A stretch of 64,000 nt of DNA, from contig NC_043002.1 of NCBI RefSeq assembly GCF_006345805.1, positions 68,076,001 to 68,140,000 on the forward strand, in the 5' to 3' direction. Positions 5,601-63,441 of the stretch are shown here, one piece after another. The notes beneath the pieces were generated by a model. The model ran no database searches. It was not told the origin of the DNA and saw nothing but the letters and a program-made list of their open reading frames with translations. Positions within the stretch are counted from its first letter, which is position 1. Every line of letters starts with the position of its first letter. The translations under genes and the position numbers were made by a program. Source of the DNA: Octopus sinensis. Taxonomy: Eukaryota.

Positions 5601-8600
5601 TTTAGGTGTTTTCGCTCAATAAACACTCGCAACGCTTAGTCTAGGAATCGAAACCACGATTCTATAACCGCGAGTCTACTGCCCTAACCACTGGGCCATT
5701 GCGTTCCATTCATAAATATATATATATATATATACAGACATATGTGTATATATATTTATGTATAATAATAATAATACCAATGATATCTTTAAAATGTGTC
5801 GGAAGTAAAAGAATTTGAATAACAGCTGCGTTTAACTCCATTTATTTATTTATATATATTATTAAAAATATTTCACGTAAACCCGAAGTTTCTATCTTTA
5901 AAAACAAGGAGTTACAACCTTTTTACTTGAGTGATTTTTTGATACCCTGGTAACTATTTATAAATTTTTTCCGTGTTAATTGTTAACAAGGGAAAAATAC
6001 ACACATCTATTTATATATACACAGACATATGTATACAAATATATCTACACAAGAGTATGCATACAGATGCACCTATGCAAATAAGTAGCCAAATAAACAC
6101 ATACATTTGGGAAGTTTGTTGGGGTAGAATCCCCAGGCACTTCTTCCATAGGATCCTATCACAAGTATCTGCCATTAAACTTTCCTGCTGAATTTCCAAG
6201 CATGACCAACTAAAACTATGGGTGTTATCCACCCACCTCATTCCTGGTCTACCCCTATATCTCTCCTGCTGCTTGGCTTGACTTGAAGAATCCACCTTGC
6301 AATTCATCCTGGAACATTCTAATTACATGTCCATAGTACAGTAAATTATAATGATTTCAAATTTTTGCCACAAGGGCAGCTTGGAGGAGGGGATTGACTC
6401 TAGTGCATAGTTAATCGACCCCAAAAGGATGAAAGGCAAAGTTGACCTTGGCAGAATTTGAACTCAGAACATGAAGACAGACAAAATATCGCTAAACATT
6501 TCACCAGGTGTTCTAACAATTATAATAATAATAATAATAATAATTCTTTCTACTATAGGGACAAGGCCTGAAATTTGGGTGAGGGGAATAGTCAATTACA
6601 TTGACCCCCCCAGTACTCAACTGGTATTTAATTTATCAACCCTAAAAGGATGAAGAGGCAAAGTCAACCTCGGCACAATTTGAACTCAGAACGTAGTGGC
6701 TGACAAAATACCAGTATGCTAACGATTCTGCCTGCTCACCGCCTTAATATACTAGATTACAGTACAATACAGGGAAATGTGTTGGGTGCAATAGAGTATA
6801 TGACTGGTAAATCAGAGCATAGAGTATCTCTTATGGTTAGGTGTGCATTAGGTGCCAATTGAGAGTGTGCATGTGTGCATACATGCATGAAGACATGGTC
6901 ATGTACAGATGTGGATGGGTGCATCTCCTGTTGTGTGCACATGCATGTGTGCATATTAACAGTTGGGGTTGTTTGTTAGAAGAGGCCTGTGTACATAGAT
7001 GCTGTTATGCATTTGTGTGAGCCAGTGTTTTCTTGATATAGTAAAGTGCATGCATGATTGTGTGTAGGAGGTTAACGTAAAAGCAGAGGTTGGGTAAAAG
7101 TACAAATGGGACAAAATATTTAGCATTAATCACTCCAGATGGTACTGGAGATTCACCTGTAAGGAATAAGGTATTACTTAATGATTGTTTTTGTATGACC
7201 ATAATGTGATTCTTTCAGAGTGTATATTTAATGTTTCTCCTTGGAGAACAGAATGTGGGAAGCTTCAATGATGCACACATCACAGGATCAGTGAAATGGT
7301 TTTAGTTATTGTTTTCTGATTAATCTCTGCATCTTGACAATGAAGTGACTTTATATTAGGCAGGATTAAAGAAGGAATTAATATTTTGGTAGAGACAGGA
7401 CTTAAATGAATTACTGATGAGGCCTATATAGGATTACTTTGCTTTGGTAAATGATATCTGATCTAAACATCTAGAATTTAAAGATCAATTTATCAGGTGA
7501 TTTCAATTATACTTGAGGTTATTTGGATTGGTATTAGTAGTGTGAGGCTGAATCTTTCTAAGGTTGAAAACAGTCATTATCTGGACAAAGTTTGGAGTAG
7601 TGAGGCATGAGAATTCGATAGTGCACTTATTAAATATGTTGTAGTACCTGTGTTGGGGTGGAAAATGTTTACTCATATAAAAAATATTTTAGCAACAAAT
7701 GTTACAAGATTGAAGATGGGGCATATTTTTTTGTAGCTCCTGGTTGACTGATGCTTTGTAAGTGACTCTAGGAAATCTGCCTCAATGAACTCCATCTGAC
7801 TTGTGCAAGTATGGCAGAGTGGACATTAAAACAACGATGAAGATAATGATGGCTACCTCCATAAAACCATCTGCATTGCATCCAGTTTTTATTGCCAATA
7901 ACAAATGTCCTTACGTTTTCTGCTTCACTTGCACCCTATCTTTCTTACCATTGTGAATTACCCTTGACATCATAAAAGTTACTTTCCATTCTAGGTCCAA
8001 ACCACGGAAGTGTCAAGAGAAAAGTGAAGCTGCAGTAGAGGACCAAGAGAAGGGTGATGATGACATTGAAGAACTAAGGTAGGATACGTATATATATATA
8101 TGATGGATCCTCTTGTCATGAATGACAAATGAAGATTTAGCAAAGTGATAATGATGTTCTATGGATGTAAACATGTCTCTTGAGGTCTTCTGGTGCCTTG
8201 CAAACTTTAGGCTTTTGTCATTGTATTTACTATGATTTTGAGTATTAATCTTACATGTGTTCCTTTTTAGTCTTGTCATTAAATTCCCAAACAAAATTTT
8301 AATTAAATTTACATTAAATTTTCTTTTGAATTTAATTATTATTACTATATATGTGTGTGTTTATGTTGAGTTATAATAAAAACTATTTAACATTAAATGG
8401 GAGAAGTACTCAATACTTTTGTGAAATACATATTATTGTACTTTTCCAAGAAGAGGAGTGGCAGTGACTTTGAAATTTCAGTCTGCTAGTCTTCATAGGA
8501 CAGTCTGACAAAATCTAGCTGGTCAAAACTTCGAAGTCACTGTCACTCCTCTTCTTATATATGTATACAGATGTATATATCTTTTTTTTTTTCTTTACAG

Positions 8601-11600
8601 TCTTTCTATTGTAGCTACAGATTTAAATGCAGGGATTGAAATTGAGTTGCGGAAGTGTTTGGTACAGCGTTTATCGAAAGGTGTTGACTGCATTGGTAGC
8701 GGAAATGTTGTTAGCTTAACTTCTAGGTGAATATTGAAATCCTCTTTTTTAAATCCATGAAGATTTAGATTTTGAAATATTTTTATGGAATTTTCTCTCT
8801 TTGGATTATGGATATGCTCCATAAATTTTCTTTTCTTTACCTTTATCCAAACTTTAGTTATAATTATTTCTTTTGATGAGGCATAATACCATCTCTTACC
8901 AAAAGAATCCCACGGTGAAATGAAACCTGGTACTATGCAGTTGCCAAGCGATCTTCTTAACCATGCAACCATACCTGCTTTCTTCAAATCTTTCTGATAC
9001 TTGTAAATGTCAATACATTCTTCATTATTATAACTAGCAAAAAGACTGCCTTCCTGGTCGTTTTCTGCTGGTCACTAAATAATATTTACATTTCTGATTC
9101 CCAACTTGTATCATTTTTCTGATATGTTACCACTAATTCTCTTCTGTATCTTTTATTTGTCTAATAGTATTTACTCAGTCAGTAGATAAATTTAGAATTG
9201 TAACAAGGGATATTAAAAGTTATAATTACCACTTTAGAAAGCATATTTTATAGTGTGCATGTAGGAAGGTTTCAAATATAGGTATTTTACAATGAAATGC
9301 AATTTCACCAGTTTGTAATGTTTCGAGTTAATTCAATGAGGTTAAATTGTAGTGACTGGCAGCAAGGTTCATTGAATGAGTGATGAAAGAGAATCAGATC
9401 AGGAAGCAAATGTATAAAGAAATAAACATACTTTATTAAGGAGAGGACACCCTCTTGTATGAGTGGCAGTAATTGGTATTCTTTTCTACTCTAGGCATGA
9501 GGCCTGAAATTTTGGGGGAGGGGGCCAGTCAATTAGATCGGCCCCAGTACGCAACTGGTACTTAATTTATCGACCCTGAAAAGATGAAAGGCAAAGTCGA
9601 CCTCGGCGGAATTTGAACTCACAACATAAAGACAGACAAAATACTGTTAAGCATTTTGCCCGGCGTGCTAATGTTTCTGCCAGCTCGCCACCTTGCAGGA
9701 GTAATTGATATTACAGTATGCATGTGAATGTATGAACAAATAATAATGCGTGTAAAATGAATAAGTGATTTCAGGTGTAGAGATGGCTGGAGGCATTTGA
9801 CAAACTTACTATGGCATGGTCCTTAGTGGTTAGTATGTTGCCTAGATTAAATGAGTTGTAAGATGTGTGGTGTACAAAGTAAATGTCAGCATGTCGTTAC
9901 GTGTGCTTATAATCACTGAACAGTTTGACAACGTCATATCAGCATGTTGATGTCTCAACAGCAGCTCTCTCTGACACTTGAAAAGACCATGTTGCCACAT
10001 GTATCCTTCTGCAGACAGTAGTAAATGGATGAAATGGGCAAAGGATGACTGTGCTATGCTGCAACAACAAAACTGCTAACATGTCTCACTACAGAATAAT
10101 ACTAAGCACTCAAACACAGTAAGCACTCAAGCATACTAAGCACTCAATTTATGAAGAAATCAGGTATTATGGAGGGCAGCCTCTTTATTTCCACTAGTAT
10201 AAAGAGAAATATTAGAAATCTTACCTCATAATGTAAGATGACTATGCTGTAGTGAATAGAAATTACTTTTATGTTTGAATTGCTTAGTTGAAATCTTCAA
10301 TAATAAAAGATGATTGAAAACCAATTTTGATAAAAAAAATATATATTACAATTGGAATTTGTAAGAATTTTCTAGATAATATAGACTTTAATAATTACTT
10401 TCCTTTAGTAAAAGTTGTATACTCCAAGCTAATTAATAAGCAGCTTTCTTTATCACATAGATGTACACATATTAACTCTAGCACTTTGCTCAGCTCCACA
10501 ATAATATTTCTCTCAGATTATGATTGAAACTTAAATTCAGTCAGTCATTGTACAAATTTCAGAATTCTATTTGGTTGACTAATTCATACTTTAAATTAAG
10601 GATCAGGTCTCCACTCTTAGACAAAGGACAGGACTCTACCTGTCCAGCTGAATATTGATCCATTTCACAGTAGAGTAGCTAACAGTTGTATTATTTAGCT
10701 CCACCTCAGCATTGATATGTAACATTCCATCCATGACTGCTCTCTCTCTTTCTTTATCAAGGACAACCTTAAAAATAACATTGTCTTCTTTTGACTTGCC
10801 TGCTATTTTTAACTGGTAGTATAAACCATTCTGTGATTTTATTTATTATTATACCTGATTCATTTTTGTTTCAATTTTATAAAAAAGAAAGAAATTCTTT
10901 TTCAGTGAAAATTCAGATTTTCCATCAGTCTGCTATTATTGTCTATGGAAATCTGATTCAAATCCTGCCTGCAAAAGTACACCGGTGCTACCCCCGTCAC
11001 CAAAATCTCGGACTACATCTACTGGAGATTATCTAGTGTGTTTCCTGTTTAGTCAAGAAGATTCACTTGAACAATATCCTTTACTATTAACTTGTGTTCA
11101 TCTCTTTCTATTATTTTTATTCTCTTTTTGTTTTTGCATTGAGTTAAGCACGAATTATTGGAGTTATTTTCCATTTTGTTTTCTCTTTTAATTACAGAGA
11201 CTAATGGTCCTTTTTGAACTTAGTGATTTAGCTTCTTGTTAAAGGACTGGATGCAGAATGGCTCTGTTCTACATAATGTGTACATGTGTGTTGGTTTGTT
11301 TGTGTCTCCTTATCTTGACATTATGCAATAGTTGTAAGCAAGCATCATCTCTATGGTAGAAGACACTTGCTTACAGTATCATGTAGAGGGAATGAACCTG
11401 GAACCACATATTTGCAAAACAAACTTCTTAATTATACAGCCATGTTTATGTACATACGCAATATCAGATACCATTTACAATCTGTTAATATTTGTTATTC
11501 GCTTTCTTGGTCATGTTTGCTTCGAAGGAATGGAAACAAAATTCAGAAGACTGTTCTTATTGGGGACAAGACAACTTTTCTTGTACTGGTGCCAGAATAA

Positions 11601-63327: not shown

Positions 63328-63441
63328 ATCAGGAGAATGGAGATTTTCCACATCTATAATTTTATTAAATAGGCCCATGAAAGAATACTGTAAATAACCG
63401 TTTAATAAAATTATAGATGAGGGAAATCTCTGTTCTCCTGA
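63328..63441. repeat. Inverted repeat, ~41-bp arms
   Basis: tcaggagaatggagattttccacatctataattttattaaa / tttaataaaattatagatgagggaaatctctgttctcctga. Confidence 0.7.

What the first reader, a model, noticed from the sequence alone, without database searches (positions are those of the whole stretch)
8448..63441. Recurrent class of fold-back insertions carrying minimal hammerhead ribozyme motifs (several unrelated families)
Seen: at least six inverted-repeat inserts (8448, 12864, 13604, 32041, 54691, 58063), plus a single-arm remnant near 21295, belong to several sequence-unrelated families. They share one RNA architecture: stem I - CTGANGA or a variant - short stem II - GAAA - (near-)palindromic stem III - TH - stem I; several lie in or beside (TA)n. 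Established: minimal type I hammerheads with palindromic helix III occur in Penelope-like element termini and retrozymes and can cleave as dimers; Penelope insertions often have inverted termini. Inference: this genome hosts a diverse, probably uncatalogued, set of non-autonomous ribozyme retroelements whose fold-back copies form long dsRNA in host pre-mRNA. That dsRNA would be an ADAR substrate in a lineage known for heavy A-to-I editing, and each hairpin would mask its own ribozyme.
Basis: partly seen in the sequence, partly recalled or inferred. Interest (0 to 1): 0.8.

Follow-up and report, generated by a model that had tools for sequence, protein, structure and literature searches.

The report
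Penelope retroelement ends with variant hammerheads
The hairpin-shaped inserts are real but are short end-pieces of ordinary Penelope-type jumping genes, likely copied from the first 150-250 bases of the element's RNA; one family carries an unusual swapped base pair in its predicted self-cutting RNA motif, whose activity is untested.

Summary
The six fold-backs and the solo arm are real. Each belongs to a family with hundreds to thousands of genomic matches. They are not a new non-autonomous class and not MITEs: all six families were traced upstream to Penelope-like (PLE) reading frames (Poseidon-, Hydra-, Neptune/Nematis-type), and one near full-length pLTR-ORF-pLTR copy was found. Junctions differ between copies, a 25-70 nt tail lies on one arm and never on both (0 of 96 fold-backs), and target duplications vary (8-15 bp): the published PLE signature, which this scan also noted in three other genomes. 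The hammerhead architecture holds at family level; the window's own copies are decayed. Two additions: (1) the 12864 family carries a compensated G3-C8 core, which my searches did not find reported in nature (one key paper was unavailable); (2) 5' ends pile up just upstream of the ribozyme, in that family with an extra G as a copied cap would give, suggesting short copies are cDNAs of the RNA's 5' end. The host gene is a spliced Njmu-R1-like gene; editing and cleavage could not be tested.

The parts
8371..8556 (.). Fold-back of the 8448 family (Hydra-type PLE end): tail about 8371-8447, arms 8448-8556; decayed hammerhead on + at 8499-8544 (core 8505-8511). Lies 42 nt upstream of a splice acceptor.
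   Evidence: tail start approximate
12807..13118 (.). Fold-back of the 12864 family (Neptune/Nematis-type PLE end): tail 12807-12863 on the left arm only; 12-bp target duplication 12795-12806 / 13115-13126
12945..12995 (-). Minimal type I hammerhead motif with swapped G3-C8 core (core 12982-12988), 7-bp stem I, palindromic 6-nt stem III; stem II weakened by one CpG change in this copy
13599..14312 (.). Fold-back of the 13599 family (Hydra-type PLE end) in (TA)n; tail about 14243-14312 on the right arm; hammerhead on + at 14168-14211 (core 14175-14181). Family core is mostly the U4C form; this arm's canonical look is probably CpG decay (inferred).
21209..21395 (-). Solo end of the 21209 family (Neptune-type PLE) between (TA)n runs; decayed hammerhead, core 21321-21327; family core has U at position 6
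32041..32501 (.). Fold-back of the 32041 family (Penelope/Poseidon-type pLTR): tail 32041-32063, cores at 32150-32156 (-) and 32406-32412 (+), tRNA-like segment around the junction (about 32245-32345); 13-bp target duplication 32028-32040 / 32502-32514
54575..54896 (.). Old fold-back of the 8448 superfamily; only the 3' half of the hammerhead on each arm; tail on the left arm
   Evidence: left boundary approximate
57996..58212 (.). Fold-back of the 58056 family (Hydra-type PLE end) in (TA)n; tail about 57996-58060; hammerhead on + at 58117-58177 (core 58123-58129), stem II weakened
8599..8724 (+). Exon of the host gene (Njmu-R1-like); further spliced exons end at 8076 and lie at 10904-11073 and 13194-13251
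   Evidence: PF15053, E 9.3e-6, 25.3 bits, below the 27-bit cut-off; table 8 (contigs of runs X1 and X8, RNA by guess)
44594..44722 (+). Probable late exon of the same host gene
   Evidence: PF15053 positions 309-352, E 0.015; weak, no transcript check

Best explanation
The inserts are pLTR pieces of six families of endonuclease-bearing Penelope-like retrotransposons, each fold-back made anew when it landed, and most short copies are likely cDNAs of the first 150-250 bases of the element's own RNA. Shown: linkage of each family to a PLE reading frame; two discrete 3' ends in four families, with the longer one (tail) never on both arms; variable junctions; variable target duplications; 5' ends piling up 8-60 nt upstream of the hammerhead (about 150 nt in the 32041 family). 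Inferred from the in vitro work on the anole element (PMC11167929): the protein nicks both strands of AT-rich DNA and starts reverse transcription at two internal sites just downstream of the hammerhead; two cDNAs begun at the two sites and joined head to head would give a hairpin with a one-sided tail. Inferred here: the 5' pile-up is the transcription start (Inr-like C-A(+1)), and the extra G in the 12864 family is the copied cap. The hammerheads are copied uncleaved, would cleave only as dimers or with protein help, and are mostly dead in the inserted copies.
For: ORF links: 32041 - RT (RVT_1 E 1.6e-9), pLTR segment downstream in 14 of 15 loci picked by the ORF alone (one is the query's own), pLTR-ORF-pLTR in L553 with the frame running through hammerhead and tail. 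21209 - GIY-YIG E 0.0026. 58056 - RT and EN frames in L294/L295, GIY-YIG E 0.011. 13599 - thumb and EN C-terminus in L144. 8448 - RT/EN remnants in L300/L247 and L346. 12864 - GIY-YIG E 1.2e-4, above cut-off, L526. Tail on both arms: 0 of 55, 0 of 15, 0 of 14, 0 of 12 fold-backs; on exactly one arm 52, 15, 10, 10. Target duplications of 8-15 bp in 27 of 88 copies against 0-4 with swapped flanks. 5' ends: 86 of 88 copies of the 12864 family share nothing beyond about 18 nt upstream of stem I; base before the start motif G 15, C 5, A 2 of 22, the long form has C in 22 of 22; 8 of 16 arms of the 13599 family that reach the site stop within 2 nt. An extra 5' G marks full-length L1 insertions (PMC11702581 passage).
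Against: The extra G is clear in one family only: 2 of 8 at the 13599 pile-up, a few cases and two candidate positions in 58056, none in 21209. The 12864 boundary also looks like an intron 3' end (branch-like CTAAC, pyrimidines, AG), and PLE introns end near helix I (PMC4209133). Pile-ups could be polymerase stalls at structure: the 32041 one is 15 nt wide and covers a GC palindrome, and the 12864 leader is predicted to pair with both 3' ends. The 21209 family showed no fold-back (0 of 25) and one 3' end. A 5' pLTR joined to an ORF was seen only for the 32041 family (3 of 30 loci). GIY-YIG hits for 21209 and 58056 are below Pfam's cut-off, and 4 of the 8 peptides had no hit. Samples are the first matches in genome order of low-divergence copies, not random draws. 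No RNA-end, cleavage or editing data.
Confidence: 0.75

Rival explanations
1. Ordinary 5' truncation: all copies start from the 3' pLTR of long transcripts and the polymerase stalls or switches template at hairpins near the hammerhead; the pile-ups are not RNA 5' ends. The PLE identity stands, the 5'-end mechanism falls.
For: Broad pile-up over a GC palindrome in 32041; many arms stop short of the pile-up in every family; predicted pairing of the 12864 leader with the 3' ends.
Against: Does not explain a G replacing the templated C in 15 of 17 non-C copies; fold-back priming on the 3' end predicts a second G before it, seen in 0 of 15; 2-nt-wide pile-up in 13599.
Confidence: 0.25
2. In the 12864 family the short form is spliced RNA with a first exon of a few bases ending in GAG; the long form is intron-retaining, as known for Drosophila Penelope.
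For: Branch-like CTAAC, pyrimidine tract and AG right at the boundary; PLE 5' introns are established (PMC2377424, PMC4209133 passages).
Against: Nothing is shared upstream of GAG in 15 copies (T 8, A 4, C 3); the upstream sequence runs about 1 kb back to the ORF stop without a second copy of a first exon being seen, as a 3' UTR would.
Confidence: 0.12
3. Short copies re-amplify on their own as non-autonomous, SINE-like or retrozyme-like elements using an internal promoter; best candidates are the 12864 unit and the tRNA-headed 32041 unit.
For: Short copies outnumber long ones about ten to one in 12864 (3656 against 312 matches, different patterns); Penelope's promoter is internal (PMC2377424); non-autonomous PLE derivatives exist (PMC8557442; bioRxiv 10.64898/2026.07.22.740005).
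Against: Junctions and arm lengths differ between copies; no hammerhead-bearing tandem in 88 copies; same sequence sits on ORF-bearing copies. Absence of TTTT behind the tRNA head is no support for Pol III (57% of shuffles lack it).
Confidence: 0.2
4. MITEs with symmetric terminal inverted repeats; hammerhead likeness is chance.
For: Top 40 matches to the 12864 insert are all about 255-269 nt long.
Against: That uniformity is selection by the query; one-sided tails, variable centres, 8-15 bp duplications, 33 of 88 solo copies, ORF links.
Confidence: 0.02

Closest known systems
Insertion units of canonical EN+ Penelope-like elements (pLTR, adjacent inverted 5'-truncated copy, one-sided tail; PMC8557442)
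   Same: Inverted arms, one-sided tail, (TA)n targets, hammerhead in the pLTR, RT plus C-terminal GIY-YIG frames.
   Different: Tails are about 58-70 nt in five families against the 30-40 nt described; most units are only 110-450 nt; 5' ends pile up at a fixed site.
Minimal type I hammerheads of metazoan PLEs (PMC4209133)
   Same: Short or palindromic helix III, extra base between 9 and 10.1 in most families, G10.1-C11.1, opposite-strand pairs 100-700 bp apart.
   Different: G3-C8 core in the 12864 family (that paper and PMC3088659 report U3-A8 in the parts I read); U4C and U6 cores as family states.
Poseidon element of the green anole, PAc (PMC11167929)
   Same: Hammerhead and tail lie in the start of the ORF (32041 family, L553); two 3' ends; templates copied uncleaved.
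   Different: In vitro study; the parts I read do not describe fold-backs from the two start sites or a cap-derived G. The 32041 pLTR also holds a tRNA-like segment.
Animal non-LTR retrozymes (bioRxiv 10.64898/2026.07.22.740005; PMC7229834 listing only)
   Same: Type I hammerheads, PLE origin.
   Different: Retrozymes are defined by head-to-tail tandems; these are solo or inverted.

Membership tests
Canonical EN+ Penelope-like elements | Reverse transcriptase upstream of the endonuclease in linked copies | tested here: met
   RVT_1 E 1.6e-9 for 32041 family; RT frames in L294/L295 (58056) and remnants in L300 (8448). RT not reached for 12864, 13599 (thumb only) or 21209.
Canonical EN+ Penelope-like elements | C-terminal GIY-YIG endonuclease | tested here: met
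   PF01541 above cut-off for 12864 family (L526), below cut-off for 21209 and 58056; by motif or tblastn only for 32041, 13599, 8448.
Canonical EN+ Penelope-like elements | pLTR-ORF-pLTR organisation | tested here: met
   L553; 5' pLTR followed by ORF in 3 of 30 loci. Tested for the 32041 family only.
Canonical EN+ Penelope-like elements | Inverted truncated copy with tail on one end | tested here: met
   87 of 96 fold-backs one-sided, 9 neither, 0 both; 21209 family 0 of 25 fold-backs.
Penelope/Poseidon clade (32041) | No Zn-finger-like linker between RT and EN; RT phylogeny | tested here: inconclusive
   No linker in the 322-aa frame of L073; no tree built; clade name rests on this and on recall.
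Hydra clade (58056, 8448, 13599) | CxCX5C linker, no CCHH, (TA)n target (PMC8557442) | tested here: inconclusive
   CxCX5C seen in L295 (58056) and L346 (8448); linker not seen for 13599, which is placed by 35% identity to 58056 frames; no tree.
Neptune or Nematis clade (21209, 12864) | CX2-5CxxC linker before the GIY-YIG | tested here: met
   L315 and L515/L524. Which of the two clades was not tested; Neptune for 21209 and Nematis for 12864 are recalled resemblances.
Minimal type I hammerhead ribozyme | Core 3-9 with 3-8 pair, GAAA, A15.1-U16.1, H17, stems I and II, palindromic helix III | tested here: met
   Family level. 12864: G3 in 24 of 24 and C8 in 22 of 24 scorable copies among 30 picked without the core (counted by eye); no variant of 5% or more at these positions in 4 runs. 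Window copies fail the strict descriptor.
Minimal type I hammerhead ribozyme | Self-cleavage | not testable with these tools
   Predicted dimer fold -25.4 kcal/mol is above the predicted minimum of -30.6.
Non-LTR retrozymes | Head-to-tail tandem units each with a hammerhead | tested here: not met
   0 of 88 in the 12864 family; single same-strand pairs appear in the match lists of 58056 (394 bp apart) and 13599 (166 bp).
MITE | Symmetric terminal repeats, constant centre, fixed short target duplication | tested here: not met

The most novel reading that the evidence does not exclude
Penelope-like elements routinely paste the capped 5' end of their own mRNA: both nicked target strands prime at the two internal start sites and run to the cap, giving tens of thousands of hammerhead-centred mini-hairpins whose 5' edges map the elements' promoters; and one family keeps a working hammerhead through a natural G3-C8 swap, a sign that the ribozyme fold is under selection.
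Probability: 0.45. Interest if true: 0.62.

Novelty: new variant of a known kind. Interest (0 to 1): 0.4.

Why it matters
How Penelope-like elements integrate and what their hammerhead is for are open questions: the one in vitro study found internal priming and no need for cleavage. If the short inserts are cap-to-start-site cDNAs, genome sequence alone gives promoter and priming positions for each family and a direct prediction for CAGE data and for the in vitro system. A compensated core swap at thousands of loci would argue that the fold is selected rather than a passenger. About half of the sampled copies in four families are hairpins, many in introns, so they are plausible editing substrates, but nothing here shows editing.

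Tried and rejected
Rfam: no hammerhead. ARAGORN: no tRNA gene in the window. Early reading that the 12864 family has no ORF-bearing parent: overturned. Early label 'Neptune' for 13599 and 58056: replaced by Hydra-type. Second G3-C8 family: loose pattern gave 1033 matches against 1921 for the control; the recurring look-alike was a SINE body. Pol III argument from missing TTTT: not significant. Sequence shared downstream of the 12864 tail in L467/L468: belongs to a Helitron-like carrier, no ORF. Editing: no RNA holder listed on record as RNA; contigs only, one A>G difference outside the fold-backs, which is no evidence either way. The dimer energy had a register error and was redone. Summed contig depths were not used as copy numbers. 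The paper by Lunse, Weinberg and Breaker on small PLE hammerhead variants is not held, and one supplementary file of PMC4209133 could not be searched; either may already hold a G3-C8 example.
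Full report
Setting. The window is G000:C6:68076001-68140000 of a 2.72-Gb genome, 34% G+C. No call names the organism; I read it as an octopus-type cephalopod from recalled repeat content, which is a guess. 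The window lies in a + strand gene: exon 8599-8724 matches Njmu-R1 (E 9.3e-6), and contigs of two runs guessed to be RNA splice 8076 to 8599-8724 to 10904-11073, one of them on to 13194-13251. A weak match at about 44594-44722 may be a late exon. The inserts at 8448, 12864, 13599, 21209 and 32041 are therefore probably intronic; for 54691 and 58056 this is unknown.

Observation. All six fold-backs are present and fold as long hairpins, -52 to -360 kcal/mol, longest unbroken helix 21-74 pairs with G-U counted. Each has many relatives: 7377 matches to a 33-mer with one mismatch (32041), 3656 to a 52-mer with two (12864), 1972 (21209), 888 (58056), 454 exact 20-mers (8448 and 54691), 410 (13599); reversed-pattern controls gave 0 each. 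The hammerhead layout is clear in family copies but decayed in the window: none of the window copies passes my strict descriptor, three pass a relaxed one, Rfam finds none, and on the host strand only 13599 and 58056 keep core and GAAA.

Identity. Following each family upstream led to a Penelope-like reading frame. 32041: the frame ends about 180 nt before the core, followed by a tRNA-like segment, (AAT)n, hammerhead and tail; RT by Pfam; L553 is near full length, with a 5' pLTR whose frame runs through hammerhead and tail into the ORF and a 3' pLTR, the layout reported for the anole element. 58056, 8448 and 13599: Hydra-type frames 1.2-1.7 kb upstream behind low-complexity UTRs. 21209: frame with a CxxCxxC linker and GIY-YIG. 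12864: found last, through a shared loose end in sequencing contigs, a long form with 312 matches and a walk upstream; GIY-YIG above cut-off, look-alike clusters with GIY-YIG at score 0.96. Clade names rest on linker motifs as described in PMC8557442 and on recall; no tree was built.

Insertion anatomy. Copies were sampled by a pattern at the hammerhead, taking the first matches in genome order and dropping second arms of the same insert. Fold-backs: 55 of 88 (12864), 15 of 29 (13599), 14 of 30 (32041), 12 of 25 (58056), 0 of 25 (21209), at least 4 of 29 (8448). In four families the 3' ends fall at two sites about 30-70 nt apart; the longer end is on one arm in 87 of 96 fold-backs, on neither in 9, on both in none. 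Centres vary. Target duplications of 8-15 bp flank 27 of 88 copies against 0-4 in ten swapped-flank controls; window inserts 12864 and 32041 have 12 and 13 bp. This excludes MITEs and matches the published PLE signature; the two 3' ends match the two internal RT start sites found in vitro (PMC11167929).

5' ends. In the 12864 family 86 of 88 copies share nothing beyond about 18 nt upstream of stem I and 2 continue in the long form. The long form has C before the start motif (22 of 22); other copies have G 15, C 5, A 2, and the base before that G is T 8, A 4, C 3, G 0. A copied cap explains this, as for full-length L1 (PMC11702581); priming on the element's own 3' end does not. Pile-ups also occur in 13599 (8 of 16 arms within 2 nt; crude Poisson 1e-12), 58056 (9 of 26 within 7 nt), 21209 (5 of 17 within 3 nt) and 32041 (10 of 15 within 15 nt at the edge of the tRNA-like segment), four of them at a C-A-(T/G)-(T/A) motif that recalls an initiator (recalled consensus). 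The extra G is not evident in those families. Splicing and stalling remain rivals.

Core variants. The 12864 family has G at 3 and C at 8 with an otherwise regular layout, at the place where the other families have their hammerhead. G3 was seen in 24 of 24 and C8 in 22 of 24 scorable copies among 30 picked by the upstream UTR (6 were truncated or deleted there); four runs from three coded organisms show no variant of 5% or more at these positions. Copies evolve neutrally after insertion, so this shows the master's state, not selection; the argument for selection is only that both partners changed together. The engineered double change partly restores cleavage (PMC11167929). Natural covariation reported in what I read is U3-A8 (PMC3088659 section 8; PMC4209133). 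Searches for G3-C8 and for G8C with C3G gave no natural example in their listings; the Lunse et al. paper was not held. The 13599 family is mostly U4C and the 21209 family has U6; U4C and A6C are known low-activity natural variants.

Editing and masking. Coleoid editing outside neurons falls on repeats in introns and 3' UTRs (PMC9068888 passages), so the idea is plausible if the host is a coleoid, but only contigs were available and they cannot show it. Masking follows from the hairpin energies but matters for two window copies at most.

Papers seen: PMC4209133 parts 1-2 of 4 and a search of 2 supplementary files (one other not searchable); PMC11167929 parts 1-2 of 4; PMC8557442, PMC6765202, PMC9068888, PMC2377424, PMC11702581 passages; PMC3088659 passages and section 8; bioRxiv 10.64898/2026.07.22.740005 part 1 of 5; PMC13282606 part 1 of 3 and passages (lists Penelope-like families in Octopus vulgaris, no mention of ribozyme or hammerhead); PMC7229834 listing only. 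Searches; none of the listings describes cap-ended short PLE copies, but these were few and keyword-bound.

Verdict. A real, well-supported but known kind of insertion, noted by this scan in three other genomes. The swapped core and the 5' pile-up with a cap-like G are the parts worth following. Interest 0.4; new variant of a known kind.

Noticed in passing
window 32245-32345; L075 about 2045-2125: The 32041 pLTR holds a tRNA-like segment with A and B boxes and an (AAT)n tail between the ORF stop and the hammerhead, like a small SINE captured in the master; many copies end at its 5' edge. Promoter role unknown.
   Followed up: partly
L467, L468, L459, L437: A partial fold-back of the 12864 family with the same junction sits inside a Helitron-like repeat at several loci, so it seems to have been spread by that carrier (Helitron label recalled).
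   Followed up: partly
window 13194-13251: A 58-nt host exon lies between two strong fold-backs (75 nt after 13118, about 350 nt before 13599); listed in the X8 contig, not among the rows shown for X1.
   Followed up: no
window 50962-51211: Another near-perfect fold-back in (TA)n with relatives in 4 of my loci; no hammerhead seen; family not traced.
   Followed up: partly
window 63314-63456, 17724-17873, 51594-51925, 62904-62997: Further fold-backs without relatives among my loci and without a hammerhead match.
   Followed up: partly
window 21122-21171: Perfect 50-bp palindrome next to the 21209 insert, with relatives in 4 loci.
   Followed up: no
window 36291-36644 and 37851-38298: Repeats with inverted ends and relatives in 13-14 loci; possibly DNA-transposon derivatives.
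   Followed up: no
L057, L176, L320, L258: Hammerhead motifs of further, untraced families in locus flanks.
   Followed up: no
32041 family, e.g. window 32117-32127: A common form lacks 3 nt at the predicted cleavage site and stem I, yet is widespread; may be a subfamily that spread without a cleavable ribozyme.
   Followed up: no
window 14932-15322: Fold-back made of two inverted copies of an abundant SINE-like repeat (154 loci hit); a more Alu-like dsRNA source than the PLE ends.
   Followed up: no
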